Source of the DNA: a virus
Taxonomy: Duplodnaviria > Heunggongvirae > Uroviricota > Caudoviricetes
Length of the DNA stretch: 33,070 nt
Reading direction: 5' to 3' (one strand)
Virus record (IMG/VR): IMGVR_UViG_2698536341_000022
Location: 1-33,070 of that record
Below the pieces are notes generated by a model. It searched no databases. It was given only the letters and a program-made list of their open reading frames with translations, and had not been told where the DNA came from. Each line of letters begins with the position of its first letter. The first letter of the stretch is position 1. Positions 1,242-16,211 of this stretch are shown piece by piece. Position numbers and translations under genes: made by a program.

Positions 1242-1433
1242 TTATCGTGAGTTTTTAGTACAGATTTTTTTGGATTTACTAATAGTTCCATCATTGCAAA
1301 CGAATTTGCCATCTGAGGTACAGTGAGAAACACCTCCCTTTTTCCCTGAGCAGGGATAATTTCTAGCATAGGTAGTTAGTGGGTTTAATAACAAAGAACA
1401 TGACAAAACCACAAAAAATACCTTACCAAGCAT
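1242..1433 (-). CDS. Small predicted secreted cysteine-containing protein (63 aa), encoded between cI and int
   Basis: Track ORF; strong RBS (GGAGGAAAC) upstream of ATG 1433; N-terminal hydrophobic signal-like segment [14 protein letters not shown] followed by a Cys/Lys/Gly-rich mature part; AT-rich relative to flanking phage genes. Confidence 0.55.
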
Positions 1434-1448
1434 AGTTTCCTCCCGGTA

Positions 1449-2018
1449 CTATTTAACATACTTGACTGTTAAACTTATAATTTTACCAATTATTTCAATG
1501 TCTTCTATCTTGCATTCGAAGGCTCTGTTTCCACCCTCGACGAAGATTCTTCCACCGGGTAAACGAGTAATGTCACGGATAGTTATTTCGCCATCAATAC
1601 TTATTACCCATTTACCATCACGTATATCATCAAATTCTTTATCACAAATAAATTCAGAATTGTTATCTGTGATGACAAAAGGTTTTTTAAACGTAGAGGG
1701 TAGAAATCCCTTATCAAAAATATAAAAACCGTCTTTCTGCAATGCTCCATCAGACAATAAATATTTTTCTACTTCTATAGTATTTGTATTTGCTGATGCT
1801 TGCTTTGAACCATGCCCTGTTGTTAGCCAATTAAGCGAGGTGCCCGTTTCAAGGGCGCACTGGATTACCCAATCTGCTGGAAAAATATCACGCATATAGC
1901 GCGTTGCCATGGTGCTCTTAGAAACACCTAAATGATCACATAGAGCCTGACGGGTACCGAACCCATATGCTTCAACTAAACGTTCTATGGCTTTCTTACC
2001 GCCGCTATTGAAATCCAC
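1449..2018 (-). CDS. cI: Immunity repressor CI (phage 186 type)
   Basis: Track ORF 1449..2105(-); segment RLVEAYGF...CALETGTSLNWLTTG resembles my recollection of the 186 CI N-terminal domain; position between int and apl. Start uncertain: GTG 2018 has a GGAGGA RBS; the maximal ORF starts at GTG 2105 with no RBS. Confidence 0.75.
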   Translation of the reverse strand: MDFNSGGKKAIERLVEAYGFGTRQALCDHLGVSKSTMATRYMRDIFPADWVIQCALETGTSLNWLTTGHGSKQASANTNTIEVEKYLLSDGALQKDGFYIFDKGFLPSTFKKPFVITDNNSEFICDKEFDDIRDGKWVISIDGEITIRDITRLPGGRIFVEGGNRAFECKIEDIEIIGKIISLTVKYVK

Positions 2019-2163
2019 AAGTCCTCCAAAGAAATCCAAAATTCGTTGACAGATTCCAAAAGCGATCTTAAAGTTGAACCAGAAGTGTTCTTTTGGAGCC
2101 TTCACTACTAATCACGACAAACAACGGCTCGCCACAAGCCATATCTAGAAGGAATGTTGCCTT

Positions 2164-2367
2164 ATGACACCTAACATTTCAATTACTCTGAATACACCAC
2201 ATGTCACAATCGAACGTTATAGCGAACTGACTGGCCTTTCTATTGATACGATTAACGACATGTTGGCTGATGGCCGACTACCTCGTCATCGTCTTCGTAA
2301 AGACAAAAAACGTGAAAAGGTAATGATTAACATGGCTGCTCTGACTGTTGATGCTTTGTCTGCTTAA
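2164..2367 (+). CDS. apl: Apl/Cox-like excisionase and lytic-switch regulator (67 aa)
   Basis: Small basic ORF divergent from cI and first gene of the rightward early operon; assignment is by position and size relative to 186 apl / P2 cox. Confidence 0.65.
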
Positions 2368-2431
2368 TAGACGTCTATTTTCGCAATAAGACGCTGAGTT
2401 CGATTTTGCGATAAGTTCGGAGTTGAAAACC

Positions 2432-2941
2432 ATGTTTGATTACCAAGTTTCCAAACATCCACATTTTGATGAAGCCTGTCGTGCATTCACACTGCGCCAC
2501 AATCTGGTGCAACTGGCAGAACGTGCGGGCATGAATGTGCAGATTCTGCGGAACAAGCTGAACCCAGCTCAACCTCATTTATTAACCGCACCAGAAATCT
2601 GGCTGCTTACCGATCTGACTGAAGATTCAACGTTGGTAGATGGTTTTCTGGCACAGATTCATTGTCTGCCATGTGTACCGATTAATGAGGTAGCAAAAGA
2701 GAAACTGCCGCATTACGTCATGAGCGCAACTGCAGAGATCGGGCGTGTTGCAGCAGGTGCGGTATCTGGTGATGTAAAAACTAGTGCCGGTCGTCGTGAT
2801 GCTATCAGCAGCATTAACTCTGTAACACGACTGATGGCGCTGGCTGCTGTTTCATTGCAGGCCCGTTTACAGGCTAATCCTGCGATGGCGAGTGCAGTTG
2901 ATACCGTGACTGGCCTCGGTGCTTCATTCGGTTTGCTGTGA
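2432..2941 (+). CDS. cII: CII lysogeny-establishment activator (phage 186 type, 169 aa)
   Basis: Protein from ATG 2432 ([19 protein letters not shown]...[25 protein letters not shown]...GASFGLL) closely matches my recollection of 186 CII; RBS GGAG upstream. The track ORF begins 9 nt earlier at a TTG. Confidence 0.85.
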
Positions 2942-3362: not shown

Positions 3363-3704
3363 ATGGCAATTAATGGCGCTGCAGCAACTGTTCCATTAAG
3401 CCCCGGTGAACGCCTGAATGGACTTAATCACATTGCAGAGTTAAGGGCGAAAGTTTTTGGCCTGAATATTGAGTCAGAGCTTGAGCGGTTTATTAAAGAT
3501 ATGCGTGATCCACGGGATAGCAATAATGAACAAAATAAACGGGCACTGGCTGCCATATTCTTTATGGCAAAAATTCCAGCTGAACGTCATAGCATCAGCA
3601 TTAATGAGCTGACCACTGACGAAAAGCGGGAGCTGATTAAAGCAATGAATCATTTTCGTGCAGTGGTGAGCTTATTTCCCAGACGGCTAACCATGCCGAA
3701 TTAA
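3363..3704 (+). CDS. Hypothetical early protein (113 aa)
   Basis: Track ORF, ATG start, part of the co-directional early operon. Confidence 0.6.
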   Translation: MAINGAAATVPLSPGERLNGLNHIAELRAKVFGLNIESELERFIKDMRDPRDSNNEQNKRALAAIFFMAKIPAERHSISINELTTDEKRELIKAMNHFRAVVSLFPRRLTMPN

Positions 3705-4232: not shown

Positions 4233-5086
4233 GCACCATCCTGAAATGGGCGGGAAATAAAACCGCCATTATGCCAGAACTGAAAAAATACCTTCCTGCT
4301 GGCCCGCGACTGGTTGAACCTTTCGCGGGTTCCTGTGCTGTGATGATGGAAACGGATTATCCCAGCTATCTGGTTGCGGATATTAATCCTGATTTAATCA
4401 ACCTCTATAAAAAGGTTTCCGCTGATTGTGAATCGTTTATATCTCGCGCCAGAGTTTTATTTGAGATCGCAAACAGGGAGGTGGCTTATTACAACATAAG
4501 GCAGGAGTTTAACTGCTCAACTGAAATTACTGATTTCATGAAAGCGGTATATTTCCTGTATCTTAATCGTCACGGTTACCGTGGTTTATGTCGCTATAAC
4601 AAGAGCGGGCATTTCAACATCCCCTACGGTAATTATAAAAATCCGTATTTCCCTGAAAAAGAACTTCGCACATTTGCAGAAAAAGCCCAGCGAGCAACGT
4701 TTATCTGCGCCAGCTTTGATGAAACGCTGGCGATGTTGAAGGCGGGAGATGTGGTGTATTGCGATCCGCCGTATGACGGTACGTTTTCCGGCTATCACAC
4801 TGATGGTTTCACTGAAGATGACCAGTATCACCTGGCATCCGTTCTTGAACATCGGTCATCAGAAGGACATCCAGTCATTGTTTCTAACAGTGACACATCC
4901 CTGATCCGTTCGCTGTATCGCAATTTTACTCACCACTATATCAAGGTAAAACGCAGCATCGGTGTGGCAGCTGGCGAGGGTAAATCAGCAACAGAAATCA
5001 TTGCTGTTTCCGGGCCGCGCTGCTGGATGGGATTTGATTATTCGCGTGGCGTGGATAGTTCTGCCGTGTACGGAGTACGTGCATGA
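4229..5086 (+). CDS. dam: DNA adenine methyltransferase, Dam-like (285 aa)
   Basis: ATG 4229 with GGAGG RBS; motifs LKWAGNK, EPFAGS and the catalytic DPPY tetrad are hallmarks of N6-adenine (GATC-type) methylases; ATGA overlaps with flanking genes. Confidence 0.85.
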
Positions 5087-7497
5087 GTCATGCCGATATG
5101 AACAACTGCTGCGGCTTTAACGAGGCTGCTGCAGCATTCTCATGGAACAGCCCGAAAAAGGCCATTAACCCTTATCTGGACCCGGCGGAAGTTGCGCCGG
5201 TTTCTACGCTTTCAAACCTGATCACTCTGTACGCTGCCGATAACGAGCAGGAACAGTTGCGCCGCGAGGCACTGAGTGATCAGGTCTGGGAGCGTTATTT
5301 CTTTAATGAATCACGTGATCCTGTCCAGCGCGAAATGGAGCAGGATAAGCTCATTAGCCGGGCAAAGCTGGCGCATGAGCAGCAGCGTTTTAATTCAGAC
5401 ATGGTCATTCTGGCGGACGTCAACGCCCAGCCTTCCCATATCAGCAAGCCGCTGATGCAACGTATTGAATACTTCAGCAGCCTGGGCAAGCCAAAGGCTT
5501 ATTCCCGCTATTTACGTGAGACGATTAAGCCATGTCTGGAACGACTGGAGCATGTACGCGACAGTCAGCTATCTGCATCTTTTCGCTTTATGGCAAGCCA
5601 TGAAGGGCTGGACGGCCTGCTGATCCTGCCTGAAATGAGTCAGGATCAGGTGAAACGCCTGTCCACCCTGGTAGCTGCGCATATGAGTATGTGCCTTGAT
5701 GCAGCTTGTGGTGATTTGTATGCCACCGATGACGTTAAGCCAGAAGAAATCCGCAAGACATGGGAAAAGGTGGCAGCGGAAACCCTGCGTCTGGATGTCA
5801 TCCCACCTGCGTTTGAGCAACTCCGTCGGAAAAGAAACCGCCGTAAACCCGTGCCCTATGAACTCATTCCGGGTTCGTTGGCGCGTATGTTGTGTGCCGA
5901 CTGGTGGTATCGGAAATTATGGAAGATGCGTTGTGAATGGCGGGAAGAGCAGTTGCGTGCTGTCTGCCTGGTCAGCAAAAAAGCATCCCCCTATGTCAGC
6001 TATGAAGCCGTGATGCATAAACGTGAGCAGCGCCGTAAGTCGCTGGAGTTTTTCCGTTCTCATGAACTGGTGAACGAAGACGGCGACACGCTGGATATGG
6101 AAGATGTGGTAAACGCCAGCAGCAGCAACCCGGCGCATCGCCGCAATGAGATGATGGCCTGTGTTAAAGGTCTGGAGCTTATCGCGGAAATGCGCAGTGA
6201 CTGCGCCGTTTTCTACACTATCACCTGTCCGTCGCGTTTCCATTCCACGCTCAATAACGGCAGACCCAACCCGACCTGGACAAACTCGACGGTAAGACAA
6301 AGCAGCGACTATCTGGTCGGCATGTTTGCTGCATTTCGTAAGGCGATGCACAAAGCCGGATTGCGCTGGTATGGCGTGCGGGTGGCTGAGCCGCATCATG
6401 ACGGTACAGTTCACTGGCACCTGTTGTGTTTTATGCGCAAAAAAGACCGCCGCGCCATCACTGCATTACTGCGTAAGTTTGCCATCCGTGAAGACCGCGA
6501 GGAGCTGGGCAATAACACTGGGCCGCGCTTTAAGTCTGAGTTGATTAACCCGCGCAAAGGAACGCCGACAAGCTACATCGCGAAATATATCAGTAAGAAC
6601 ATTGACGGGCGTGGTCTGGCTGGCGAGATCAGCAAGGAAACGGGTAAATCTCTGCGTGATAACGCTGAATACGTTAATGTCTGGGCGTCTCTGCATCGTG
6701 TTCAGCAATTCCGCTTCTTTGGCATTCCGGGGCGTCAGGCTTACCGTGAACTGCGATTGCTGGCTGGTCAGGCGGCAAGGCAACAGGGTGACAAAAAAGC
6801 AGGTGCTCCGGTACTGGATAACCCGCGCCTTGATGCCATTCTGGCTGCTGCTGATGCTGGCTGTTTTGCCACCTACATTATGAAGCAGGGCGGCGTGTTG
6901 GTTCCCCGCAAATATCACTTGATCAGAACCGCTTATGAAATCAACGAAGAGCCGACAGCCTATGGCGATCACGGCATTCGTATTTATGGCATCTGGTCAC
7001 CCATTGCAGAGGGCAAGATCTGCACTCATGCAGTGAAGTGGAAAATGGTTCGTAAGGCCGTTGACGTTCAGGAGGCGGCAGCCGACCAGGGCGCTTGCGC
7101 CCCTTGGACTCGTGGCAATAACTGTCCCCTTGCTGAAAATTTGTACCAACAAGGGAAAGACAAATCAGCTGATGGAGATACCAGAACTGATATCACCCGT
7201 ATGGATGACAAGGAGTTGCACGATTACCTGCACAGTATGAGCAAAAAAGAGCGCCGGGAACTGGCAGCAAGGTTACGCCTGGTGAAACCGAAACGGCGTA
7301 AAGACTACAAACAGCGAATTACAGATCATCAGCGACAGCAGCTCGTGTATGAACTGAAGTCCAGGGGATTTGATGGCAGCGAGAAAGAGGTCGATTTACT
7401 CCTTCGCGGCGGCAGTATTCCGTCAGGAGCAGGCCTGCGTATCTTCTATCGGAACCAGCGTTTGCAGGAAGATGATAAGTGGCGGAACCTGTATTAA
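5083..7497 (+). CDS. A: Replication initiation protein A (rolling-circle nicking endonuclease, P2 gpA / 186 RepA family, 804 aa)
   Basis: Size, position after the early operon and the HxH-containing segment (VHWHLLCF) fit P2 A-type replication proteins. Confidence 0.85.
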
Positions 7498-7589
7498 TTA
7501 CGCGGGTTAACAATTCGTGCTCTTAATAATACCAGGCATTTCTGGCTGATGAACGTAAAAAAACGTTTTACATCAGTAAGATTATTATA

Positions 7590-7609
7590 TACTGTAAATA
7601 TAAACAGTG
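7590..7609 (+). promoter_or_regulatory. LexA operator (SOS box) upstream of the tum/dinI-like operon
   Basis: tACTGTaaatataaACAGtg is a perfect CTGT-N8-ACAG match with an AT-rich spacer, 41 bp upstream of ATG 7650; an adjacent half-site ATACAGTA lies at 7617-7624. Confidence 0.8.
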
Positions 7610-7649
7610 GTTATGTATACAGTATCGCTTTGGTGTCATAGGAGGAAAG

Positions 7650-7838
7650 ATGCAGGACTATTTTTTGGAGTCTTTGAAGCTCCAGCGCATTGATTTTTTT
7701 CTTAAGCTTGTAGCGGCTAGTGAGTGTAGTGATGAAGAGAAGGGGCTGGCTCTGCAGTGGGTTTCTGAATTGACTGATGAACTCATGGCAAAAATCAGAA
7801 CCCACGAATACAACCGCTCAATGGATGTCATCAGTTGA
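7650..7838 (+). CDS. Small SOS-operon protein (62 aa), possible Tum-like antirepressor N-terminal module
   Basis: GGAGG RBS, ATG start, directly downstream of the LexA box and upstream of the DinI-like gene; function inferred from position only. Confidence 0.5.
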   Translation: MQDYFLESLKLQRIDFFLKLVAASECSDEEKGLALQWVSELTDELMAKIRTHEYNRSMDVIS

Positions 7839-7848
7839 GGTGACTTTT

Positions 7849-8082
7849 ATGCGCATTGAAATAATGATCGATAAAGAGCAGAAGATTAGCCAGTCTACCC
7901 TGGACGCCCTTGAATCCGAGCTTTACCGCAATCTGCGCCCCCTGTATCCCAAAACGGTAATTCGTATCCGCAAAGGTAGCTCTAACGGTGTGGAACTGAC
8001 CGGACTGCAACTGGATGAAGAAAGAAAACAAGTGATGAAAATTATGCAGAAAGTGTGGGAAGACGACAGCTGGCTGCATTAA
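7849..8082 (+). CDS. DinI-family protein (77 aa), likely the C-terminal-like half of a split 186 Tum-type antirepressor
   Basis: MRIEIMIDKEQ...LDALESEL...KQVMKIMQKVWEDDSW aligns along its length with my recollection of E. coli DinI (MRIEVTIAK...IDALAGEL...KQRISEILQETWESADDW); GAGG RBS before ATG 7849. Confidence 0.8.
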   Translation: MRIEIMIDKEQKISQSTLDALESELYRNLRPLYPKTVIRIRKGSSNGVELTGLQLDEERKQVMKIMQKVWEDDSWLH

Positions 8083-8193
8083 GAAACGTTGCCTCCAGGA
8101 GGATTCATTCTGATGGGGGCTAGTTTGGGCAACGAGTGAAACGAGGCGTAAGGTGGGCGGGCATTTTGATAAGTGATCGTCCGCTTTGTGCTA

Positions 8194-8213
8194 GAAGCGG
8201 TCGTTACCGCTTC
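8194..8213. terminator. Stem-loop between convergent dinI-like and herA genes (possible bidirectional terminator)
   Basis: Perfect 8-bp inverted repeat GAAGCGGT / ACCGCTTC with a 4-nt loop; flanking T-run is weak. Confidence 0.4.
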
Positions 8214-8226
8214 AGCACTTTGTTAA

Positions 8227-10086
8227 TTAGTGAGGGCTGGTTATTACGTAGTCGCTCTGGTCATCCTCTCCCAGCCTCTCAGGTATTAAATCGTTGAAGG
8301 AAATAGTATTACTCTTAGGTTTTTCTTCAATTGGAAGTTCAGCTACCCTTAATTTGAGCGGCATGGGGCAGACGATACCACTAAAAATACAGGTTCCTGT
8401 AGATAGCGTTGGAATCGACTCTTCAGTCAGTCGATCTATATATGATACTGATTTTTCAATTGCGTACAGATCATTCTGATTAATAAGGCGATGAATAAAA
8501 TAATTGTGTGCTTGGGATATGATTGTCGACGATATATCATTAGGGCGTTGACTGGAAATTGTGATAAAAACTCCAAATTTTCTCCCCTCCTTTATGATTT
8601 CCTCAAAAGTTTCCAGACGATAATCTCTCCAACTTTCCGTTTCCCGAAAAGAAGTATTAGACAAAATATTGTGGGCTTCATCTATAATGATGTGCAGTGT
8701 AGATTTCTCTGTAGACATTTTCTTCATATTGTAAGCCCACTTGGCTATCAAAAGAGGAAGCGTTTTTTTCATGGTTATATTAACCATATTTAGATTCACA
8801 ACCGTGAAATTATGTTCACCCCAAAAGTCAGACTGTCCGGAAGTATCAAATATTTTGGCTATATCTTTACGGTTAGCACTCATTCTATTTATAACTGGTG
8901 AAATATGTTCAGGGTTAGACTTGTTAGATAAATATTCCTGTATTAACTGTAAGTACATAAAGTCCAACAGTTCTTCAATCATATCAGTTTTAAATAAAAA
9001 ATTGCTTGCAAGACTGAATAGATAGGAGCGCTCAGTATCAGCTTCTGTATTGAAAATACTACCACCCCTCAATTTCCATTTATATGCAGTTGAATGATAC
9101 TCAAGATCAGATATAAGTTCTGGGTCATCTTTGAAAATTGGGCTAAGAAACTGATTTATAGTATCGCATTTGGGTTTGTCGCTACTAAAGAGATTTTGTC
9201 TGACTTTTTTCTTCAGGATATTGCGCATAAACTCAAGAGGATTATCAGCAGTCATCACTTTCTTGCGAAACTCAAGAACTCTCTTCAGGAAAGGTTTCTG
9301 TGTTTTGTCTGTTGCATCGGTTAGAACTGAGAGCATATCATGCTCAAGTAGAACCTCTCTGGGTAGAGGAAGTTTGTCACCATTTGCATGGTGCGTGTTG
9401 AGATTATAAACCGTCTTCTCGTCAGTAATACAGCGTGGGGCAGTATATTCTCCATTAAAGTCGAATAGAATAAATTTGCATCTTTCACTAAAGTGGTTGC
9501 CGAGAATATGTTTAACTTGGGCAATACCTGCTTTGTATAGCGCGGCTAGGGTATTTGACTTTCCGCTGCCTGTATTACCGAAAATGGCAATGTGGGAATT
9601 AATAAGACCATTGATTGGTAGTGCAATTTCAATATCTTCAAGATCTGTACGAGTAAACCTCATTACAGTTTCGTCTGCATTAGCTATCTGATGAACCGTT
9701 TGTATCATCTCTTCAGTTACCACGAAGACTTCATTGCCGATGAGAGGTAGTTCACGCGAACCACCAATGAAGCAACCAGTACGATCAATGTAACCCGTAA
9801 GAGTAGAGGTCAGGTATCGCCGATATCGCCAGGCATCACTGCCGCTCCCAGCGAGATGTTTTTCCTCAATGATTCGTTCCGCTTCAACCTTGCCGATCAG
9901 GCTCATGAAACCTTTTTTGATCTCAATGAAGCTACCCACTGATACATTTCTTAGAACTTTTCCCTGATAAAACAAGTCACTGAGATTTTTGTTTTTATCG
10001 ACCAAAATTGTCACAGCGCGTCCAGAAACCTCACAGACTTCGCCTATACGGAGCACCGCTTCCTCTTCAGTAAAATGCCTGCTCAT
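8227..10086 (-). CDS. herA: HerA-like P-loop ATPase/helicase of the SIR2-HerA anti-phage system (619 aa)
   Basis: Walker A GNTGSGKSN and Walker B IIIDEAHN in a DUF87/HerA-FtsK-like arrangement; ATG 10086 overlaps the SIR2 stop (ATGA) with a GGGAGG RBS. The track ORF extends to GTG 10107. Confidence 0.85.
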   Translation of the reverse strand: MSRHFTEEEAVLRIGEVCEVSGRAVTILVDKNKNLSDLFYQGKVLRNVSVGSFIEIKKGFMSLIGKVEAERIIEEKHLAGSGSDAWRYRRYLTSTLTGYIDRTGCFIGGSRELPLIGNEVFVVTEEMIQTVHQIANADETVMRFTRTDLEDIEIALPINGLINSHIAIFGNTGSGKSNTLAALYKAGIAQVKHILGNHFSERCKFILFDFNGEYTAPRCITDEKTVYNLNTHHANGDKLPLPREVLLEHDMLSVLTDATDKTQKPFLKRVLEFRKKVMTADNPLEFMRNILKKKVRQNLFSSDKPKCDTINQFLSPIFKDDPELISDLEYHSTAYKWKLRGGSIFNTEADTERSYLFSLASNFLFKTDMIEELLDFMYLQLIQEYLSNKSNPEHISPVINRMSANRKDIAKIFDTSGQSDFWGEHNFTVVNLNMVNITMKKTLPLLIAKWAYNMKKMSTEKSTLHIIIDEAHNILSNTSFRETESWRDYRLETFEEIIKEGRKFGVFITISSQRPNDISSTIISQAHNYFIHRLINQNDLYAIEKSVSYIDRLTEESIPTLSTGTCIFSGIVCPMPLKLRVAELPIEEKPKSNTISFNDLIPERLGEDDQSDYVITSPH

Positions 10087-11126
10087 CTCGAGCCTCCCAG
10101 ATAGCACGTGATAATGTTATTCATTACCGGAAAATCAACATTTCTTCCCGGCCGATAAATAATCTCTACGTTTGAGTAATCCCGAAATTTCTCCATAAAG
10201 CCGTTAACACTGGCCTCATCGAAAGCAAAGATCAGTAGCTTCAGGGTGGCGTTGCGCAGGGCTTTTTTAGTTATCGTTTCAATGTGCTCATCAGCAAACG
10301 AGAACCCAAAGACAATTAGTAAAGTTGCTTCTTTATCAAGCTCGTTGGAATAGGTTCTCAGTAAATCATAATAAACGTTCTGTAGTAGAGTCTCTTTAAA
10401 CTTCTCCTTACGTGGAAGAATAAGTGCATGAGCAAGTACCCATCCTTTCATTTCGGCTAGGGTGGGAAAGTCAAGCGGCTTAATATCTGCAATACGATAA
10501 ATGATTTTCCCTTTAGAATGCTGCCAAGAGAGCGAACCATGAAGTTTTATAAGGTTAACAGTAGGAAGCTCAACTTTATAATTATACAGATTTCCGGTTG
10601 CACTTACAGAATGATTAAAGCTACCCGCATCAAATTCCGCATCTCCCAAAATACTTGCTCTTCTATTGAATCCATCATTAAAAAGAATATTGTTATTACG
10701 TGTGGCAGCTTCTTCGATGAATAAATCATAATTAGTTGTAAAAACGTTAATACGCCTCGGAAGTAGGCCAGTTCGGCGGCGGGTCAGTATCTTTTCCAGT
10801 GAAGACATAAATGCATCATAATTTGCACGGGTACATTCCAAATCGGTGATCACCTGAGGTGCGAAGGGGGTGCCGTAGCCGCGCTTCAACATGCATTCAT
10901 GAGGTAGCCAAACATCTGACAAAAAGTCAGCTGCCATCCTTAAGTATTCATCTTCCTGTTCATCATTAATAAGCTGCTGAAGATCCGTTTCGATTGTCCC
11001 CAGTACTTTAATCGCTGGGAGGGATGCACCTGATCCGATGAGAAAGTTAATGTTAGCTGACTGAAATATCCGCTCTAAGTAGTCTCGGTCACTATCGTTA
11101 CCGTAGTATGCGCGCTTGACTGCCAT
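10083..11126 (-). CDS. SIR2-like NAD-consuming domain protein of the SIR2-HerA anti-phage system (347 aa)
   Basis: Motifs FLIGSGAS, TTNYD and KLHGS are hallmarks of defence-type SIR2 domains; ATG 11126 with AAGGA RBS (track ORF starts at TTG 11141); directly upstream of and overlapping herA. Confidence 0.85.
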   Translation of the reverse strand: MAVKRAYYGNDSDRDYLERIFQSANINFLIGSGASLPAIKVLGTIETDLQQLINDEQEDEYLRMAADFLSDVWLPHECMLKRGYGTPFAPQVITDLECTRANYDAFMSSLEKILTRRRTGLLPRRINVFTTNYDLFIEEAATRNNNILFNDGFNRRASILGDAEFDAGSFNHSVSATGNLYNYKVELPTVNLIKLHGSLSWQHSKGKIIYRIADIKPLDFPTLAEMKGWVLAHALILPRKEKFKETLLQNVYYDLLRTYSNELDKEATLLIVFGFSFADEHIETITKKALRNATLKLLIFAFDEASVNGFMEKFRDYSNVEIIYRPGRNVDFPVMNNIITCYLGGSR

Positions 11127-11550
11127 CTTATCCTTCCACAAAACATTGGATTAGTCTGTAATTTATTTAATCTTAACGCCGAGCTCAATACTTTAACATC
11201 ACTTCTTCTGGCGATTGCTATGAGCCCTTCTTGATAAAAAGTTCGATCGGGAAACTGATCCTTTATGCCACAAGTTTTCTAGCTATCCTCAAAAAATTGG
11301 TGTTAAAACTGTGCCAACAAAGTTGCAAGGTTCGCTTCTCGCTCACAGCGAACTTTCATCTTTGTAAACCCGTATGATTCGCTTTTCAGCAGTCATTCAG
11401 ATACGGATTTACGCTTCCCTTGGCAGCGCATGACTATGACGCATGAGATCGCATGATCGTTTGAGGATCGTTTTTGCTGAAGTCAGCCAGAACTGGCGTG
11501 CTTTTGCTTATGTCATGCAGGTGCATGAAAACCACTACATAAAGCGGGCA

Positions 11551-11569
11551 GGCGTGGCGGGGATACGAG
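11551..11569. other. Candidate cos (cohesive end) site, 186/P2-like
   Basis: GGCGTGGCGGGGA matches the first 13 nt of the 19-nt cohesive end as I recall it for 186 (GGCGTGGCGGGGAAAGCAT); the last 6 nt diverge. It lies in a 580-bp non-coding stretch. Recalled from memory, not searched. Confidence 0.35.
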
Positions 11570-11721
11570 CGCGCGCTAAGTCATATAAGAGTTATATATT
11601 GATTTGATTGCTGGACATGCATACAGTATCGCTCTATCATCTAATAAATCTTAGAGTATTTGACAATGTTTGGATAAAATGGAACCTAACTTATTCATAA
11701 TCCGCTAAACAGGGATGTCAG

Positions 11722-12636
11722 ATGCCATACCAATTGGTAGAGCTTAGCCCCGTAGCTAACGATCTTGAACAGTTAGGAACCAAAGAGAAGTTTTGGTTCT
11801 ATTTCTCCGATGACACTGTAAATTTGCAGTTGTTTAAGTACTCTAGGCCAGGTACTGGCGAGCATTGGTCTGAAAAGTGTGCTGCTGAGTTATGTCATTT
11901 GCTTAACATTCCACATGCTAGCTATGATTTGGCGCGATACAATGGTCGATTCGGTGTGGTGACTCAGAATATCATTCCATCTGGTTTCCGGATGGTAATG
12001 GGAAATGAAGTGCTTCACAGTTCGACATTCGATTATCCTGGGTCTTTACAAGCCGGGGAAAAGCCGGTAAGGGTCAGAGAACACACTGTCACAAGGGTAT
12101 TGGGTTGTTTAGATAGGGAATCTATCAAGCCTCCTCCGAGTGTATATGATCTAACCGGGCTAAATGCAGCAGATGTATTTTGTGGATATTTGATGCTCGA
12201 TGCACTTGTGAGTAATCAAGATCGCCATCATGAAAATTGGGCGATCATGCTTAACAATGAAACTGGTGAGCAGTTTTTGTGTCCAACATACGATCATGCC
12301 GCTAGTTTAGGAAGGGAGATGTTAGATGATGAGCGTAACGAACGGCTTAATACTAAAGATAAAAATCGACAAATCCCATGTTTTGTAAGAAAAGCTCGCT
12401 CTGAGCTATTCAAAGCAAAAACTGATAAAAAGCCCTTGCTGACCGTTGAAGCATTTCAACATGCAGTTGAAGGGAGAGTTGCCGCTCGCGACCATTGGTT
12501 AGGTAAGTTGAGCGTTTTAACAGAAGATTCCATTACAGATGTGTTTAACCAAGTGCCTTCATCGTGTATATCCGACAGTGCACGTAGATTTGCAACGTTA
12601 ATGGTAATGGAAAATCGCAGAAGGTTACTAGAATGA
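11722..12636 (+). CDS. HipA/HipT-like Ser/Thr kinase-fold protein (304 aa); first gene of a candidate two-gene defence/toxin module
   Basis: P-loop-like LGTKEKFWF near the N-terminus, catalytic-loop-like SNQDRHHENW and a downstream PTYDH motif, in the order seen in HipA_C kinases; lacks the long HipA N-domain (HipT-like length). Stop overlaps the next start (ATGA). Confidence 0.6.
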   Translation: MPYQLVELSPVANDLEQLGTKEKFWFYFSDDTVNLQLFKYSRPGTGEHWSEKCAAELCHLLNIPHASYDLARYNGRFGVVTQNIIPSGFRMVMGNEVLHSSTFDYPGSLQAGEKPVRVREHTVTRVLGCLDRESIKPPPSVYDLTGLNAADVFCGYLMLDALVSNQDRHHENWAIMLNNETGEQFLCPTYDHAASLGREMLDDERNERLNTKDKNRQIPCFVRKARSELFKAKTDKKPLLTVEAFQHAVEGRVAARDHWLGKLSVLTEDSITDVFNQVPSSCISDSARRFATLMVMENRRRLLE

Positions 12637-13373
12637 CTAATACAAACTCCGTTTACGTCGCATGGCAGGCACCAGATACCAGAGACTGGCATGTTGTTGG
12701 TAACTTGCAAGAGCGCAAATCGGGGTATGTTTTCAGGTATACCAAAGGTGCTCTCAAATCTACTAAATTTACAAAGTTTAGCGGCATGAGTGATGTTCGT
12801 GAAACTTATGTTTCGGAAGAATTGTTTCCTCTTTTTAAAAATCGCCTTTTATCACCGAGACGTCCAGAGTATCCGAGTTTCATTAAATGGCTTGGATTTG
12901 AAGAAGATAAGGTAAATCCTATCGATATTCTTGCTCGCTCGGGAGGCTTACGAAGCACTGATCAGCTGCAGATTTTCAAAAAAATTGATGTTGATTCTGA
13001 TGGTAACTTTGAGCATTTTTTCTTCTTACATGGACTTGGTTACTTAAATAGCTTAGCTAATGCTCGTGTATCTGAATTGAAACCGGGGCAAATTTTGCGT
13101 CTTTGCTTGGATCTTCAAAATGAATACGATGGGGATGCTGTTGTCGTTCGTGCAGATAAACCAGCTGAAATCGTTGGTTACTGCCCTAGGTATTTAAGTA
13201 ATGATATCAAGAAGATGTTATTGGATGATCCAAAATCAATCACTTTAACGGTCGAAAAGATTAGCGATGATGCTCCTCATAACTATCGGTTATTATGTAA
13301 ATTATCAGGAGTACTAAGCCAAGCCTGTCAATCGACGCTGATTCCTCAGGATGAGTTTGAACCTATTGAGTAA
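12633..13373 (+). CDS. Protein with HipA-N/HipS-like N-terminal domain and C-terminal HIRAN-like domain (246 aa)
   Basis: N-terminal LFPLFKNRLLSPRRPEY resembles the HipA N-domain motif (F-x-N-L-L-P-E-G-x-x-R); C-terminal LKPGQILRLCLDLQNEYDGDAVVVRADKPAEIVGYCPRYLSNDIKKML matches the HIRAN signature (NPYD-x-NAI-x-V ... G-Y-x-P). Translationally coupled to the kinase gene. Confidence 0.55.
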   Translation: MTNTNSVYVAWQAPDTRDWHVVGNLQERKSGYVFRYTKGALKSTKFTKFSGMSDVRETYVSEELFPLFKNRLLSPRRPEYPSFIKWLGFEEDKVNPIDILARSGGLRSTDQLQIFKKIDVDSDGNFEHFFFLHGLGYLNSLANARVSELKPGQILRLCLDLQNEYDGDAVVVRADKPAEIVGYCPRYLSNDIKKMLLDDPKSITLTVEKISDDAPHNYRLLCKLSGVLSQACQSTLIPQDEFEPIE

Positions 13374-13379
13374 ATGAAG

Positions 13380-13403
13380 AAAAGCCACCAAACGGTGGCT
13401 TTT
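13380..13403. terminator. Bidirectional rho-independent terminator between the kinase-HIRAN operon and portal gene Q
   Basis: Inverted repeat AAAAGCCACC / GGTGGCTTTT with a short loop, flanked by T-runs on both strands, in the 34-bp gap between convergent stops. Confidence 0.7.
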
Positions 13404-13407
13404 CTTA

Positions 13408-14445
13408 TTATGGGACTATATCTAGCGAGTAGGTATTAAACTGTATCGCCTCCTTGCCAAGCCAATCATTCATCTCCTGTAATCGCTTTTGTAGTGGCAT
13501 TAGCTCATTTCGGACGAATACACGGCTTGCCTTCTCCACATCCCCAAACCCCCCAACATTATTCGGCATAATCCCCATCATTTGCGGCGGTACACGATGC
13601 GCCGCCATCATGTCGTCCCGGCTTACGTTCTTGATGTTCAGAAACTCATCCTTTGCCGCCACTTCTGACAGCGGGATGATCTGAAGCCCGTCCTTTTTGC
13701 CGTTAGGCGAGTACATAAACAGGTTGCGGAAGTTGCCCGGACCTTTGGCGCTTTTCATCGCGTTGCGGAGGTTGTTCACATCCTCCTGGTTCTGAGCGGC
13801 ATCGGTCATGTACATTATGAATCCTGCATGGCTGCCATTAATATAATATTTGCGTCGGAACAGCGTGGCGGACTCGTTGAGCAGGGCTGACGGAATGGCA
13901 GAAAGATAGCCGGGCAGGCCGTAGATCTCCTGGTTGATATCGGGTTCCATCAGATGAAAGATGCTGCCTTTCGTGAACTGATACGGCTGGGTTGTCATAC
14001 CGTATTGCACAAACCAGTAGGTATCCAGGTCTAACCCGCGTCGGGTGTATTTTGCCAGCGCAGGCTCAAGGGCGATAATTTCACCGAACCGGTTCGTGCG
14101 TTTCTCCAGGTAGGCGTTACCAAATACCAGATAGTCCTGCACAAAACGTGAAAAAGCCTGCTGGCTGAGCAGCGGGTGAGGGATGTAGGTGCTGGTCAGA
14201 ATGTTGCATTTCACCGCAATCGGTGAGCTATGATGCACGGCGGCGCGGAAGGTTCGCGCCAGTCCGTCGAAACTCACTGGTGGCTCATACCAGCGGTCCA
14301 TCTGTACGCATTCCACATAGTCCAGTAATTCGCGGCGGTCCAGAACAGGAACGGGATCGCCGAAGCTGAATGCTTCGGCTGAAGTCTGGCTTTTATGCTG
14401 GATCTGATTCATCGCCGCTGCGCGGTTTTTCTTACGCTTTCCCAT
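13408..14445 (-). CDS. Q: Portal protein (P2 gpQ family)
   Basis: Position downstream of P on the same strand, size of about 345 aa, P2 synteny; ATG 14445 overlaps the P stop. Confidence 0.85.
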   Translation of the reverse strand: MGKRKKNRAAAMNQIQHKSQTSAEAFSFGDPVPVLDRRELLDYVECVQMDRWYEPPVSFDGLARTFRAAVHHSSPIAVKCNILTSTYIPHPLLSQQAFSRFVQDYLVFGNAYLEKRTNRFGEIIALEPALAKYTRRGLDLDTYWFVQYGMTTQPYQFTKGSIFHLMEPDINQEIYGLPGYLSAIPSALLNESATLFRRKYYINGSHAGFIMYMTDAAQNQEDVNNLRNAMKSAKGPGNFRNLFMYSPNGKKDGLQIIPLSEVAAKDEFLNIKNVSRDDMMAAHRVPPQMMGIMPNNVGGFGDVEKASRVFVRNELMPLQKRLQEMNDWLGKEAIQFNTYSLDIVP

Positions 14446-16211
14446 CAAAAAATCTCCACAATATTACTGGTATTGGCGGACTCGCCTTGCAGTGGTTCGT
14501 TAAACAGTGCGTGCATTGTTGCCCAGGCCAGATCGGCGTGGCTGGCTTCTTCGCTGCGGCTGGCTTCATAGGTCGGGCGGTTGCCACTGGCGGTGGTGGC
14601 GCGACGGATTGCCATAAATGACTGCGCTATGTCGGTGTGTCCGGCGTCAAACTCCAGACGGCGGTGGCTGATAATGTCGTAGGCCTTGAGTACCAGAGCG
14701 TTTTTAACGTTGGGGTTGTAGACAAACTCCCGGACGGCAGGAAAGAACGCTTTCACGTTCTCATAAACCCCGTGACCGACGCCTGTCGAGTCAATGCCGA
14801 TATAGGTCACGTTGTACTGCTCGGTCAGTTTTTTGATGGCGTCAGCCTGGGCGCGGAAGTCCATTCCGCGCCACTGGTGACGCTCAAGAATGCGGAACTT
14901 ACCGCCCGGCACGGCTGGCGGTGCCACCACCACGCACCCGGCGCTGTCGCCGTTTTGCGTACCTTTTGCCGGGTCATAACCGATCCACACTTCGCGCCAG
15001 CCAAACGGGCGCAGCGCCAGTGCATGAAAGTCGGTCCAGACTTCCCAGCTGTCCACCATGCACCCCTGCAGCTCGCTGAGCGGGAACACGGACGCGAGAT
15101 CGTCCACGAACTCACACATCAGCAGGTTCTGGTATTCATCCGGGCTGTATTCCATGCGTAACTGGTCGAGGTCGAACAAGTTGCAGCCGCCGCGCACCGC
15201 ATCTTCCACAGTGACTATCTGGCGGTACTGCCCGTCTGCGCACAGCAGGCCGGGGGCCAGATTGCTGTGGGACAGGTCGATGTCCACCTTGTCGGCTTTG
15301 TTGCGTCCACGGTTGAACAGCGCACCGGACCAGAACGGATAAGCACTGTGGGTCAGGCTGGATGGCGTGGAAAAATAGGTTTGTCGCCATTTTTTGTGAA
15401 TAGCCATACCGGAAGCCACTTTGCGCAGCTCCTGGAATTTCGGTATCCAGAAATATTCATCCAGATACAGGTTACCGTGATAACTCTGGGCTGTGCGGGC
15501 ATTGGTGCCGAGGAAGTAAAGCGTGGCCCCGTTAGGAAGCACCATCGGATCGCCTTTCAGCTCCACCTCCACTTCTTTGGCGAAGTCGATGATGTACTGC
15601 TTAAAGACGTGGGCCTGTGCCTTACTGGCGGAAAGGAAAATCTGGTTACGTCCGGTCAGCAGGGCGTCAATCAGGGCTTCACGGGCAAAGTAAAAGGTCG
15701 CGCCGATCTGGCGTGACTTCAGCAGGTTGCGGATGCGGTTGGTTTTTCCGGCTTCCCACCAGTGGCGCTGGTAGTTGAACATGGAGGAGTGGAAGATTTC
15801 TTCCAGCTTCTCAATTTGTTCATCGGTGAAAACGTTCTTTTCCGGCTGACGGCGCGGGCCTTTGTTGCGGTTGGCGACGTTAGGGTTTAAGTCGGCTTCG
15901 TTACCGCCATTGTTAAACTTGCCGATGCGCGCGTGGCGCTCCGACTGGCGCGCCAGCAGGTCAATTTCTTTGAAATCTTTCCCTTCTTTGTGCTCCTTCA
16001 TAATGAGCTGGCAGTAGCGTGCGGCGGTGGTGAGCTGCATCTGATCCAGCGGCCCATAGTCACCCCACTTGTCGCGTTTTTTCCAGCTGTGAACGGTTGC
16101 AACTTTCTCGCCCAGCATTTCAGCAATGCGGGCTACGCGGTATCCCTGAAAGTACAGCAGCATGGCCTGCCGACGGGGATCGAGATCTGCGGGTGTCAGT
16201 GTGGTGTTCAT
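14445..16211 (-). CDS. P: Terminase large (ATPase) subunit (P2 gpP family, 588 aa)
   Basis: Size and position divergent from the O-N-M-L operon, as in P2. Confidence 0.85.
   Translation of the reverse strand: MNTTLTPADLDPRRQAMLLYFQGYRVARIAEMLGEKVATVHSWKKRDKWGDYGPLDQMQLTTAARYCQLIMKEHKEGKDFKEIDLLARQSERHARIGKFNNGGNEADLNPNVANRNKGPRRQPEKNVFTDEQIEKLEEIFHSSMFNYQRHWWEAGKTNRIRNLLKSRQIGATFYFAREALIDALLTGRNQIFLSASKAQAHVFKQYIIDFAKEVEVELKGDPMVLPNGATLYFLGTNARTAQSYHGNLYLDEYFWIPKFQELRKVASGMAIHKKWRQTYFSTPSSLTHSAYPFWSGALFNRGRNKADKVDIDLSHSNLAPGLLCADGQYRQIVTVEDAVRGGCNLFDLDQLRMEYSPDEYQNLLMCEFVDDLASVFPLSELQGCMVDSWEVWTDFHALALRPFGWREVWIGYDPAKGTQNGDSAGCVVVAPPAVPGGKFRILERHQWRGMDFRAQADAIKKLTEQYNVTYIGIDSTGVGHGVYENVKAFFPAVREFVYNPNVKNALVLKAYDIISHRRLEFDAGHTDIAQSFMAIRRATTASGNRPTYEASRSEEASHADLAWATMHALFNEPLQGESANTSNIVEIF

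What the first reader, a model, noticed from the sequence alone, without database searches (positions are those of the whole stretch)
11142..11721. Long non-coding stretch containing a cos-like sequence; cargo operon lies between cos and the portal gene
580 bp without any ORF of 60 codons or more separates the SIR2 and kinase genes. It contains GGCGTGGCGGGGA, identical to the first 13 nt of the 186 cohesive end as I recall it. If this is cos, the kinase-HIRAN operon (about 1.65 kb) lies between cos and Q, where P2 has under 200 bp. That would make it a second cargo insertion point on the packaging side of cos.
Basis: inference. Interest (0 to 1): 0.4.

Follow-up and report, generated by a model that had tools for sequence, protein, structure and literature searches.

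The report
Prophage cos site flanked by defence cargo
The non-coding stretch holds the DNA-packaging (cos) site of a P2/186-like prophage of E. coli, and the kinase-HIRAN operon does lie between cos and the portal gene. That position has been a recognised cargo slot since 1996, so the finding is correct but ordinary.

Summary
No ORF of 60 or more codons lies in 11142-11721. GGCGTGGCGGGGA occurs once, at 11551-11563 (about 0.001 expected by chance), and equals the first 13 nt of the 186/PSP3 cohesive end.

The 13-mer sits in a 149-bp conserved island (11428-11576, positions -123 to +26 around the predicted nick). The island aligns with the cos regions of P2, 186, PSP3 and P4. Identity stays mostly above 75% (90-100% near the nick) across 129 distinct relatives and falls to random on both sides. 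The predicted cohesive end is GGCGTGGCGGGGATACGAG, which phage SEN8 annotates as its putative cos.

The kinase-HIRAN operon (hipIN-like, PADLOC candidate PDC-M03) fills the 1857-bp cos-to-portal interval, where P2 has 186 bp. This is not a new insertion point:
- Retrons Ec86/Ec67 (Dodd & Egan 1996) and ctx of phiCTX occupy the same slot.
- The slot lies inside the gpA-gpQ defence hotspot of Rousset 2022.

In two samples of relatives about 90% carry cargo here (median about 1.6 kb, 70 gene arrangements). Nearly all of it reads from cos towards Q.

Virion ends were not mapped, so cos function rests on homology. Verdict: real, correctly read, already known.

The parts
8227..10107 (-). HerA-type ATPase. 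Second gene of the SIR2-HerA defence cargo in the left slot (between the DinI/tum-like gene and cos).
   Evidence: PADLOC HerA PDLC04097, E 6.7e-267; Pfam DUF87. GC 0.40 against 0.53-0.55 in the backbone.
10083..11126 (-). SIR2 protein of the SIR2-HerA system. The ORF finder extends it to a TTG at 11141; the annotated start of the identical gene is the ATG at 11126.
   Evidence: PADLOC SIR2 PDLC04080, E 6.3e-211; Pfam SIR2_2. RefSeq annotation in E. coli E189.
11127..11427 (-). Leader and presumed promoter region that belongs to the left (SIR2-HerA) cassette. It is not part of cos.
   Evidence: 100% identical in prophages that share SIR2-HerA (H62-H70). Unrelated in other relatives: identity about 25-35% left of -123. 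GC 0.40. No sigma-70 consensus was found by the simple scan.
11428..11576 (+). The conserved cos island, 149 bp, spanning -123 to +26 relative to the predicted top-strand nick. This is the terminase recognition and cleavage region.
   Evidence: Per-column identity is mostly above 75% (90-100% near the nick) over 129 distinct relatives and drops to random outside. Aligns with P2/186/PSP3/P4 cos junctions. blastn matches in phages and E. coli stop at these edges. GC 0.53, like the backbone.
11427..11456 (+). Three direct CGCATGA repeats (11427, 11440, 11450). Candidate terminase (small subunit) binding sites; their function is inferred.
   Evidence: the repeat finder family D2. GCAT cores are 96-100% conserved. 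They occur at equivalent distances in P2, 186, PSP3 and P4.
11513..11528 (+). Inverted repeat TCATGCA/TGCATGA, 23-38 bp left of the nick, at the left edge of the about 58-bp core shared with P4.
   Evidence: the repeat finder pair I3. 93-100% conserved. Part of the P2/P4 core alignment.
11551..11569 (+). Predicted 19-nt 5' cohesive end GGCGTGGCGGGGATACGAG. Nicks are predicted between 11550/11551 (top strand) and 11569/11570 (bottom strand), by analogy with P2 and 186.
   Evidence: Exact 13-mer. 15 of 19 nt identical to 186/PSP3 and 14 of 19 to P2/P4. The identical 19-mer recurs in most of the 146 relatives. It is annotated as putative cos at nt 1-19 of phage SEN8. Cleavage was not tested.
11577..11721 (+). 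AT-rich leader of the right-hand cassette, with a promoter-like site (TGGACA-17-TATCAT, 11612-11640).
   Evidence: GC 0.32. Promoter scan. Identity to relatives with other cargo is random from +27 onward.
11722..12636 (+). Small HipA-homologous Ser/Thr kinase (HipI-like). First gene of the cargo between cos and the portal gene.
   Evidence: PADLOC PDC-M03A, E 2e-122, full length. Pfam HipA_C, E 3.6e-4, below the curated cut-off. RefSeq name 'HipA domain-containing protein'.
12633..13373 (+). HipN-like protein: a weak HipA N-terminal (HipS-like) domain plus a C-terminal HIRAN domain. Its start overlaps the kinase stop by 4 nt (ATGA).
   Evidence: PADLOC PDC-M03B, E 3.4e-93. Pfam HIRAN, E 1.1e-13. 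Couple_hipA, E 0.0037, below threshold, on residues 20-72. The architecture matches hipIN of Gerdes 2021.
13377..13406 (.). Perfect 13-bp hairpin flanked by A and T runs. Probably a bidirectional terminator that closes both the cargo operon and the convergent P-Q late operon.
   Evidence: Inverted repeat I1. dG -21.0 and -20.4 kcal/mol on the two strands, z -8.0 and -6.9. Most alternative cassettes end in a hairpin of their own at this place.
13408..14448 (-). Portal gene (P2 Q / 186 W homologue). Its last 140 nt or so travel with the cassette.
   Evidence: Pfam Phage_portal. In 100-nt bins, identity to relatives with other cargo falls from about 0.9 to 0.75 and then 0.5 at the 3' end. It stays 0.92-1.0 in relatives with the same cargo.

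Best explanation
**What it is.** The 580-bp gap is three things laid end to end:
- 11127-11427: the leader of the leftward SIR2-HerA defence operon.
- 11428-11576: a 149-bp cos island.
- 11577-11721: the AT-rich promoter and leader of a rightward hipIN-like kinase-HIRAN operon.

**How cos most likely works (inferred).** The island is the packaging site of a P2/186-like (Fels-2/SEN8-type) prophage. The phage terminase is inferred to bind the repeated GCATGA motifs on the left arm. It would then cut 19 nt apart at 11550/11551 and 11569/11570, giving 5' cohesive ends GGCGTGGCGGGGATACGAG. In virion DNA the kinase-HIRAN operon would then sit at the extreme left end and SIR2-HerA at the extreme right end.

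**Why cargo sits here.** Only -123..+26 is constrained. The DNA between +27 and the 3' end of the portal gene is therefore free, and it serves as a replaceable cassette slot. Each cassette brings its own promoter, its genes reading from cos towards Q, and in most cases a hairpin terminator that abuts the convergent portal gene.

**How cassettes are most likely exchanged (inferred).** Exchange is probably by homologous recombination between the cos island and the portal gene, independently of the classical tin/old slot to the left of cos.

**Shown versus inferred.** Shown: the homology, the boundaries, the variability, the orientation bias and the cargo identities. Inferred: cleavage, the protein binding sites, the recombination mechanism and the function of the cargo.
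For: **cos identity**
- Exact 13-mer, expected 0.001 by chance.
- Alignment with the annotated cos junctions of P2, 186, PSP3 and P4 from about -123 to +26, in the same orientation relative to Q.
- 44-46 of 58 core positions identical.
- Conservation island -123..+26 with random identity outside, over 129 distinct sequences.
- The identical 19-mer is annotated as putative cos at the start of the genome of plaque-forming phage SEN8.
- The 13-mer search found only one exact copy in the window.

**Cargo slot**
- Of 1276 E. coli genomes that match the query holding the island (mostly over the island alone), only 21 have kinase-HIRAN.
- E. coli E189 has the same SIR2-HerA left side but an AIPR gene between cos and portal.
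- In 146 portal-selected relatives the cos-to-Q interval is 120-3518 bp, with a median of 1.54-1.67 kb. Only 14 are 300 bp or less.
- In 86 relatives selected by the 19-mer alone the median is 1627 bp, and 9 are 330 bp or less.
- Only 44 of 1236 E. coli genomes have the empty junction that was tested.
- 70 arrangements and 122 protein clusters occupy the slot. They include PD-T4-9, ShosTA, IetAS, bSEFIR, AbiU/AIPR, PD-T7-1, retron I-C, a type II methylase and an Old-like protein.
- GC is 0.41 in the cargo, 0.53 in the island and 0.55 in Q-P.

**Orientation and ends**
- 222 ORFs read from cos towards Q and 8 read the other way (114 against 8 protein clusters).
- Most cassettes end in a hairpin of their own.

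**Independent assortment**
- Carriers of kinase-HIRAN have different or empty left slots.
- The left/right occupancy table shows all four combinations.

**Precedents**
- phiCTX ctx.
- Retrons Ec86 and Ec67.
- A hotspot statement in the phiRSY1 paper.
Against: - Nobody has mapped virion DNA ends for this cos variant. SEN8's cos is labelled 'putative' and was assigned during annotation, so the nick positions rest on analogy.
- Positions 14-19 of the cohesive end (TACGAG) differ from 186 (AAGCAT).
- It is not shown that this particular prophage is inducible.
- The promoter assignment is a single consensus match in a scan that found fewer sites than the shuffled controls.
- Both samples of relatives are biased towards close kin, and many share ancestry. 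The occupancy and orientation counts therefore overstate the number of independent events.
- The empty-junction count in E. coli tests only one filler variant.
- The defence function of PDC-M03/hipIN is unvalidated.
Confidence: 0.87

Rival explanations
1. The cos-like sequence is a relic or a chance match. The prophage is defective, or it packages from another site.
For: No experimental ends exist for this variant. 4 of the last 6 cohesive-end positions differ from 186. Two 2-mismatch copies of the 13-mer exist at 5043 and 27114.
Against: The exact 13-mer has a chance expectation of 0.001. A 149-bp island is held mostly above 75% identity (90-100% near the nick) between unrelated flanks in 129 distinct sequences from many enterobacterial genera. 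This indicates ongoing selection. The two 2-mismatch copies lie at 5043 and 27114, within long ORFs far from the cos-Q region, and the number of hits at 2 or fewer mismatches is reached in 5 of 100 shuffles. Portal and large terminase are full length. The ORFs at the positions of the scaffold, capsid and small-terminase genes have the expected lengths but were not checked by homology.
Confidence: 0.05
2. The cargo arrived by insertion of a mobile element (a transposon, or a site-specific insertion at a defined point next to cos). It was not a cassette replacement by recombination between the cos island and the portal gene.
For: The left junction is sharp and the same (+26/+27) for all cassettes. 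A target-site-specific mechanism could also produce that pattern. Dodd & Egan describe a replacement of a fixed stretch of about 180 bp, and the mechanism is not established.
Against: No transposase or integrase is present, and no direct or inverted repeats flank the cassette. The right junction is not a point: it is a gradient inside the portal gene, whose last 140 nt or so co-vary with the cargo. That is what recombination within flanking homology predicts. The same cassette is found with different left slots, and the reverse.
Confidence: 0.12
3. The kinase-HIRAN pair is a phage function, for example one that acts on DNA ends during packaging or replication, and is not accessory cargo. Its place beside cos would then be functional.
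For: HIRAN domains bind DNA 3' ends (Gerdes 2021 and references cited there). The operon directly abuts cos.
Against: Of 1276 E. coli genomes that match the query holding the island, only 21 carry the operon. 70 unrelated arrangements, or nothing at all, occupy the slot in relatives. P2, 186 and PSP3 lack it. Its GC is 0.41 against 0.55 in the backbone. It matches a defence-candidate family, and Rousset 2022 lists a HIRAN-kinase pair among the unknown systems of a Vibrio crassostreae strain.
Confidence: 0.03

Closest known systems
Retron Ec86/Ec67 locus of a 186-related prophage (Dodd & Egan 1996, Virology 219:115; summarised in PMC6868368)
   Same: [quoted passage not shown] That is the same slot, the same kind of phage and the same kind of replacement. 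A retron (type I-C RT-Toprim) also appears in this slot in the survey.
   Different: The cargo here is a hipIN-like kinase-HIRAN pair, not a retron. I could not read the 1996 paper itself, only later summaries of it.
ctx gene of Pseudomonas phage phiCTX (NC_003278)
   Same: A lysogenic-conversion gene with its own promoter and terminators lies between cosL (1-21) and the portal gene Q (1417-2469, minus strand). It reads from cos towards Q.
   Different: The host and genus differ (Citexvirus), the cohesive ends are 21 nt, and the cargo is a toxin, not a defence candidate.
gpA-gpQ (tin/old) defence hotspot of P2-like phages (Rousset 2022 PMC9122126; Vassallo 2022 PMC9519451; NAR 2026 PMC13586616)
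   Same: The window's two systems lie between gpA and gpQ, the interval those papers define as one hotspot 'adjacent to the cos site'. HipA_C + HIRAN arrangements are already listed in Rousset's table of these loci.
   Different: Those papers delimit the locus by protein genes only. In the passages I searched they do not place cos inside it. Here cos divides it into two slots that assort independently. P2's own old/tin genes lie in the left slot only.
cos-adjacent hotspot of satellite P4 (gop-beta-cII position)
   Same: Variable cargo starts just after cos +26 on the same side and reads away from cos (gop at 247-648, plus strand). The P4 cos core aligns with the window from about -32 to +26, together with the upstream GCATG repeats.
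   Different: P4 has no portal gene, and the far boundary of its slot lies towards the integrase. No cassette shared between P4 and this slot was looked for.
Salmonella phage SEN8 (Felsduovirus, NC_047753)
   Same: It has the identical 19-mer and the following GCGCGC at the genome start. 2.2 kb holding two genes separates cos from the portal gene in a phage that forms plaques.
   Different: The cargo differs (a hypothetical protein plus an HNH endonuclease, the latter on the opposite strand). Its cos is also only 'putative'.
hipIN toxin-antitoxin-like modules (Gerdes et al. 2021, PMC8262856) / PADLOC candidate PDC-M03
   Same: [quoted passage not shown]
   Different: Neither kinase toxicity, nor neutralisation by the HIRAN protein, nor phage defence has been shown for this family. 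The Pfam matches to HipA_C and Couple_hipA fall below the curated thresholds.

Membership tests
P2-family cos site | GC-rich 19-nt cohesive-end sequence of the form GGCG(A/T)GGCGGGG... | tested here: met
   11551-11569 is GGCGTGGCGGGGATACGAG. 15 of 19 nt are identical to 186/PSP3 and 14 of 19 to P2/P4.
P2-family cos site | The about 55-bp core shared by P2-family phages and satellite P4 (Ziermann & Calendar 1990, as cited in PMC5694545 and PMC9594776) | tested here: met
   Positions -32..+26 are 44-46/58 identical to P4, P2, 186 and PSP3. Homology ends at +26 in all five.
P2-family cos site | Position and polarity: between the replication/conversion region and the leftward portal-terminase operon, with the cohesive-end sequence reading towards the portal gene | tested here: met
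   The gene order is gpA, DinI-like gene, left cargo, cos, right cargo, Q(-), P(-). The layout is the same as in P2, 186 and PSP3. The portal is on the minus strand in 87 of 87 19-mer-selected loci.
P2-family cos site | Sequence under selection relative to its flanks | tested here: met
   The island -123..+26 is conserved, with about 25-35% identity outside, over 129 distinct sequences.
P2-family cos site | Terminase cleavage in vivo that gives 5' 19-nt overhangs, and sufficiency for packaging | not testable with these tools
   This needs virion end mapping or cosmid transduction. The literature offers only assignments by analogy for this variant.
Cargo (moron/defence) cassette in the cos-to-portal slot | Presence or absence and replacement among otherwise collinear relatives | tested here: met
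   Of 1276 E. coli genomes that match the query holding the island, only 21 carry the operon. AIPR takes its place in E189. There are 70 arrangements, and 14 of 146 relatives have an interval of 300 bp or less with no ORF of 70 aa or more.
Cargo (moron/defence) cassette in the cos-to-portal slot | Own transcription signals and a base composition that differs from the backbone | tested here: inconclusive
   The composition criterion is met: GC 0.41 and 0.32 against 0.55. The terminator hairpin is strong. The promoter rests on a single consensus match. There are no expression data.
hipIN / PDC-M03 | HipA-homologous kinase core | tested here: inconclusive
   The PADLOC PDC-M03A profile matches at full length, E 2e-122. 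The Pfam HipA_C match is 20.7 bits, below the 30.5-bit cut-off. There is no significant match to solved structures by sequence. Catalytic motifs were not inspected.
hipIN / PDC-M03 | Downstream partner with a HipS-like N-terminal domain plus a C-terminal HIRAN domain | tested here: inconclusive
   HIRAN is met (E 1.1e-13). The HipS-like part is only a sub-threshold Couple_hipA match (E 0.0037). PDC-M03B matches at full length, E 3.4e-93.
hipIN / PDC-M03 | Toxin-antitoxin or anti-phage activity | not testable with these tools
   Both are described as putative or candidate only. Rousset lists a 'HIRAN-kinase' among the unknown systems.

The most novel reading that the evidence does not exclude
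The gpA-gpQ 'hotspot' of P2-like phages may really be two slots that assort independently. They are separated by a 149-bp cos island and follow different rules.
- Occupancy: the cos-to-portal slot is filled in about 90% of the Fels-2/SEN8-type relatives sampled, so P2 and 186 would be atypical.
- Orientation: its genes almost always read from cos towards Q (222 ORFs against 8, or 114 protein clusters against 8). The left slot shows no bias (51 against 43).
- Cassette ends: most cassettes supply their own hairpin terminator next to the portal gene, and each carries its own variant of the last 25-45 codons of the portal gene.
- Size: left and right cargo lengths trade off (r = -0.44), as a capsid-capacity budget would predict.
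- Position: the right slot is equivalent to the P4 satellite hotspot. The shared cos core could therefore mediate cassette traffic between helper and satellite.

If true, the 1,650 'arrangements' reported for this locus would be combinations of two smaller repertoires.
Probability: 0.55. Interest if true: 0.4.

Novelty: already known. Interest (0 to 1): 0.2.

Why it matters
The value is mainly in annotation. Placing cos at 11551-11569 shows that the two defence operons are separate cassettes at opposite ends of the packaged genome. They are not one multi-gene system, and that matters when defence systems are inferred from neighbouring genes in the gpA-gpQ locus.

The survey suggests that published arrangement counts for this hotspot mix two independent slots. 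It also suggests that the cos-to-portal slot, empty in the textbook phages P2 and 186, is the more commonly filled one in this clade. It holds validated systems (PD-T4-9/CmdTAC, ShosTA, IetAS, bSEFIR, retrons) alongside many uncharacterised cassettes, including the hipIN-like PDC-M03 pair seen here. Those cassettes are reasonable candidates for testing.

None of this changes how cos sites or phage morons are understood.

Tried and rejected
- **Rfam scan of 10900-13600 at E <= 1.** It gave only two hits far below threshold. One (BSnc120, 32 bits against a gathering score of 114) is just the terminator hairpin. No known RNA family was detected in the gap.
- **Small ORFs in the gap.** The longest is 54 aa and runs across the cos island. 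It was not treated as a gene.
- **Promoter scan.** It found one + strand site, fewer than in the shuffled controls, and nothing for the SIR2 operon. Promoters therefore remain unassigned.
- **Repeats flanking the cassette, as a sign of transposition.** None were found.
- **Ungapped comparison anchored at the portal stop codon.** It suggested no conservation anywhere in the 3' 150 nt of Q. Global alignment showed that this was partly misregistration and partly a real gradient. Only the latter is reported.
- **Search for satellites carrying the same 19-mer without a portal gene.** The loci without a portal nearly all had right flanks that were too short, so nothing could be concluded.
- **Literature search for experimental end mapping of the TACGAG variant.** Only assignments by analogy were found.
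- **Original papers.** Ziermann & Calendar 1990, Dodd & Egan 1996 and Nakayama 1999 are not in the library, so they are cited only through later papers.
- **Not attempted.** Structure prediction and deep homology searches on the kinase and HIRAN proteins were left out, because the question was about cos and the slot, not the mechanism of the cargo.
Full report
**1. Check of the observation**

The window is a P2/186-like prophage. Its relevant genes, in order, are:
- the replication gene gpA, 5083-7497 (+);
- a DinI/tum-like gene, 7777-8082 (+);
- HerA, 8227-10107 (-), and SIR2, 10083-11141 (-);
- a small HipA-like kinase, 11722-12636 (+), and a HIRAN protein, 12633-13373 (+);
- the portal gene, 13408-14448 (-), and the large terminase, 14445-16211 (-).

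No ORF of 60 or more codons lies in 11142-11721. The longest inside is 54 aa. With the start annotated for the identical SIR2 gene in RefSeq (ATG at 11126), the gap is 595 bp.

GGCGTGGCGGGGA occurs once, at 11551-11563. About 0.001 exact hits are expected by chance. It equals nt 1-13 of the annotated cohesive ends of 186 and PSP3, GGCGTGGCGGGGAAAGCAT.

**2. Is it cos?**

I joined the right and left ends of P2, 186, PSP3 and P4 into circular junctions and aligned them with the window. Homology runs from about -123 to +26 relative to the top-strand nick:
- The 58-bp core (-32..+26) is 44-46/58 identical to each of the four. This corresponds to the '55-bp core' of Ziermann & Calendar cited in PMC5694545 and PMC9594776.
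- Further left, GCAT(G) motifs sit at equivalent distances in all five. In the window these are three CGCATGA repeats (11427, 11440, 11450) and an inverted TCATGCA/TGCATGA (11513-11528).
- Homology ends at +26, after GCGCGC, in every one of them, including P4.

The predicted cohesive end is GGCGTGGCGGGGATACGAG (11551-11569). It differs from 186 at 4 of the last 6 positions (15 of 19 identical overall). The same 19-mer is annotated as 'putative cos' at nt 1-19 of the plaque-forming Salmonella phage SEN8. It recurs exactly in most relatives. For this variant I found only assignments by analogy, with no mapped ends. The cleavage positions are therefore inferred.

**3. Boundaries**

I fetched 160 loci encoding relatives of the portal protein: 80 from species-representative genomes and 80 from IMG/VR. 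A cos motif lay within 4.5 kb downstream of the portal stop in 146 of them.

Per-column identity was computed over the 129 distinct cos regions that carry GGCGTGGCGGGG. It is about 25-35% up to -124. From -123 to +26 it stays mostly above 75% and reaches 90-100% from about -30 to +26. From +27 onward it is random again. blastn against phage records and E. coli genomes breaks at the same places.

The 580-bp stretch is therefore three units:
- 11127-11427, which belongs to the SIR2-HerA cassette. It is 100% identical in prophages sharing that cassette (H62-H70).
- 11428-11576, the cos island, with GC 0.53, like the backbone.
- 11577-11721, the AT-rich (GC 0.32) leader of the kinase operon, with one promoter-like site at 11612-11640.

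**4. Is the kinase-HIRAN operon cargo between cos and Q?**

Yes. The distance from cos +1 to the portal stop is 1857 bp, against 186 bp in P2, 195 bp in 186 and 197 bp in PSP3. The other evidence:
- 1276 of 5426 complete E. coli genomes match the query that holds the island, most of them over the island alone. Only 21 have the operon, always next to a portal gene.
- E. coli E189 has the identical SIR2-HerA side up to window 11576, and then an AIPR gene in place of kinase-HIRAN.
- The five kinase-HIRAN carriers among the fetched loci have different left sides. In one (L089) the left slot is empty: 207 bp from DinI to cos.
- GC is 0.41 in the operon and 0.55 in Q-P.
- The two genes overlap by 4 nt.
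- A perfect 13-bp hairpin (13377-13406) follows the operon. Its dG is about -21 kcal/mol on either strand. It lies 1 nt from the portal stop codon and probably terminates both convergent transcripts.
- No repeats or recombinase genes flank the cassette.

**5. How general is the slot?**

In the portal-selected sample the cos-to-Q interval ranges from 120 to 3518 bp. The median is 1544 bp in genomes and 1673 bp in viral contigs. Only 14 of 146 intervals are 300 bp or less.

An independent sample chosen only by the 19-mer gives a median of 1627 bp. Nine of 86 are 330 bp or less, and the portal is on the minus strand in 87 of 87.

In complete E. coli genomes, only 44 of 1236 with a match have the empty junction that I tested. 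This tests one filler variant only.

The slot holds 70 gene arrangements and 122 protein clusters. Representatives match:
- PD-T4-9 (CmdTAC), ShosTA, IetAS, bSEFIR and AbiU/AIPR;
- PD-T7-1, PD-T7-4-like, retron type I-C, a type II methyltransferase and an Old-like protein;
- the candidates PDC-S49, PDC-S59 and PDC-M01, plus PIN and DUF4062 proteins.

Of the ORFs of 70 or more aa, 222 read from cos towards Q and 8 read the other way (114 against 8 clusters). In the left slot the split is 51 against 43. Most cassettes end in a hairpin of their own just before the portal stop.

These counts are inflated by shared ancestry, and both samples lean towards close relatives.

**6. The right-hand junction lies inside the portal gene**

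Global alignment of portal genes shows about 0.9 identity over the first 900 nt, whatever the cargo. The last two bins fall to about 0.75 and about 0.5 in loci with other cargo. They stay at 0.92-1.0 in loci with kinase-HIRAN.

The C-terminal 25-30 residues keep a pattern (L-x-E-x-N-x-W ... I-x-F-x-x-Y) but differ between cassettes. They are shared within a cassette type. This fits exchange by recombination between the cos island and the portal gene, with the portal tail linked to the cassette. That mechanism is inferred.

**7. What the cargo is**

The pair matches PADLOC candidate PDC-M03 at full length (E 2e-122 and 3.4e-93). Its architecture is that of the hipIN modules of Gerdes et al. 2021. 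[quoted passage not shown]

The Pfam support is mixed:
- HIRAN is clear (E 1.1e-13).
- HipA_C (E 3.6e-4) and Couple_hipA (E 0.0037) fall below the curated cut-offs.
- No solved structure matches the kinase by sequence.

The activity of the pair is untested. Rousset 2022 already lists 'HipA_C + HIRAN' inside gpA-gpQ arrangements and a 'HIRAN-kinase' among unknown systems.

**8. Comparison with what is known**

The position has several precedents:
- In phiCTX the ctx gene, with its own promoter and terminators, lies between cosL (1-21) and Q (1417-2469, minus strand).
- SEN8 carries 2.2 kb there.

[quoted passage not shown] P4's own hotspot (the gop-beta position) starts just right of its cos, on the same side and in the same orientation as this slot.

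**9. Verdict**

The cos variant and the cargo family are both already recorded. I therefore rate it as already known, with low interest.

The survey adds four things:
- sharp limits for the cos island;
- the high occupancy and strong orientation bias of the right slot;
- the linkage of the portal tail to the cassette;
- a negative correlation between left and right cargo lengths (r = -0.44, n = 122).

These are modest refinements that would need phylogenetically corrected re-analysis. Mapping the virion ends remains the one decisive experiment for the cos assignment.

Noticed in passing
window 13408-13550 (3' end of the portal gene); loci L089-L168: The last 25-45 codons of the portal gene are far more divergent than the rest (identity about 0.5-0.75 against about 0.9). 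They co-vary with the cassette next to them, so each cassette type carries its own portal C-terminal tail. A residue pattern (L-x-E-x-N-x-W...I-x-F-x-x-Y) is kept.
   Followed up: partly
cos-to-portal intervals of 146 loci (L009-L168) compared with their DinI-to-cos intervals: The orientation bias is strong in the right slot only: 222 ORFs read from cos towards Q against 8 the other way. The left slot shows 51 against 43. One possible reason is that cargo placed in the same direction as Q would be read through from the late P-Q operon and across cos. This was not tested.
   Followed up: partly
122 loci with both slots measurable; window 8083-11550 and 11551-13407: Left and right cargo lengths are negatively correlated (r = -0.44). 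Their sum never exceeds 5047 bp in the sample. The window's sum (3469 + 1857 = 5326 bp) is above that maximum. This fits a capsid-capacity budget. It was not corrected for phylogeny or for total genome length, and the left-slot length is approximate where DinI was absent.
   Followed up: no
L008 (E. coli E189, NZ_AP024521.1), 6512-8254: A prophage with the same SIR2-HerA cassette and the same cos island carries a 580-aa AIPR-family (abortive-infection-like) gene in place of kinase-HIRAN. This is a direct example of the two slots assorting independently.
   Followed up: yes
L290/L291 (satellite P4, NC_001609): P4's cos-adjacent variable region (gop at 247-648, plus strand, then beta) begins just after +26, on the same side of cos and in the same orientation as the cos-to-portal slot of the prophage. 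I did not check whether cassettes are shared between the two slots.
   Followed up: no
L243 (IMGVR_UViG_3300011853_000021), 3447-3465 (-) and 6704-6722 (+): One viral contig holds two exact copies of the 19-mer in opposite orientation, 3.2 kb apart. This could reflect adjacent elements or a misassembly. It was not examined.
   Followed up: no
window 13359-13437 (-): A sub-threshold Rfam match to Brucella sRNA BSnc120 (32 bits; gathering score 114) coincides with the terminator hairpin at 13377-13406. It is most likely an artefact of the hairpin.
   Followed up: yes
window 7777-8082 (+): A DinI/Tum-like gene lies directly after gpA, as in 186 and PSP3. This suggests SOS-inducible, 186-type control, combined with a Fels-2/SEN8-type cos. 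In 24 of 87 relatives cos follows this gene after only about 207 bp, which means an empty left slot.
   Followed up: partly
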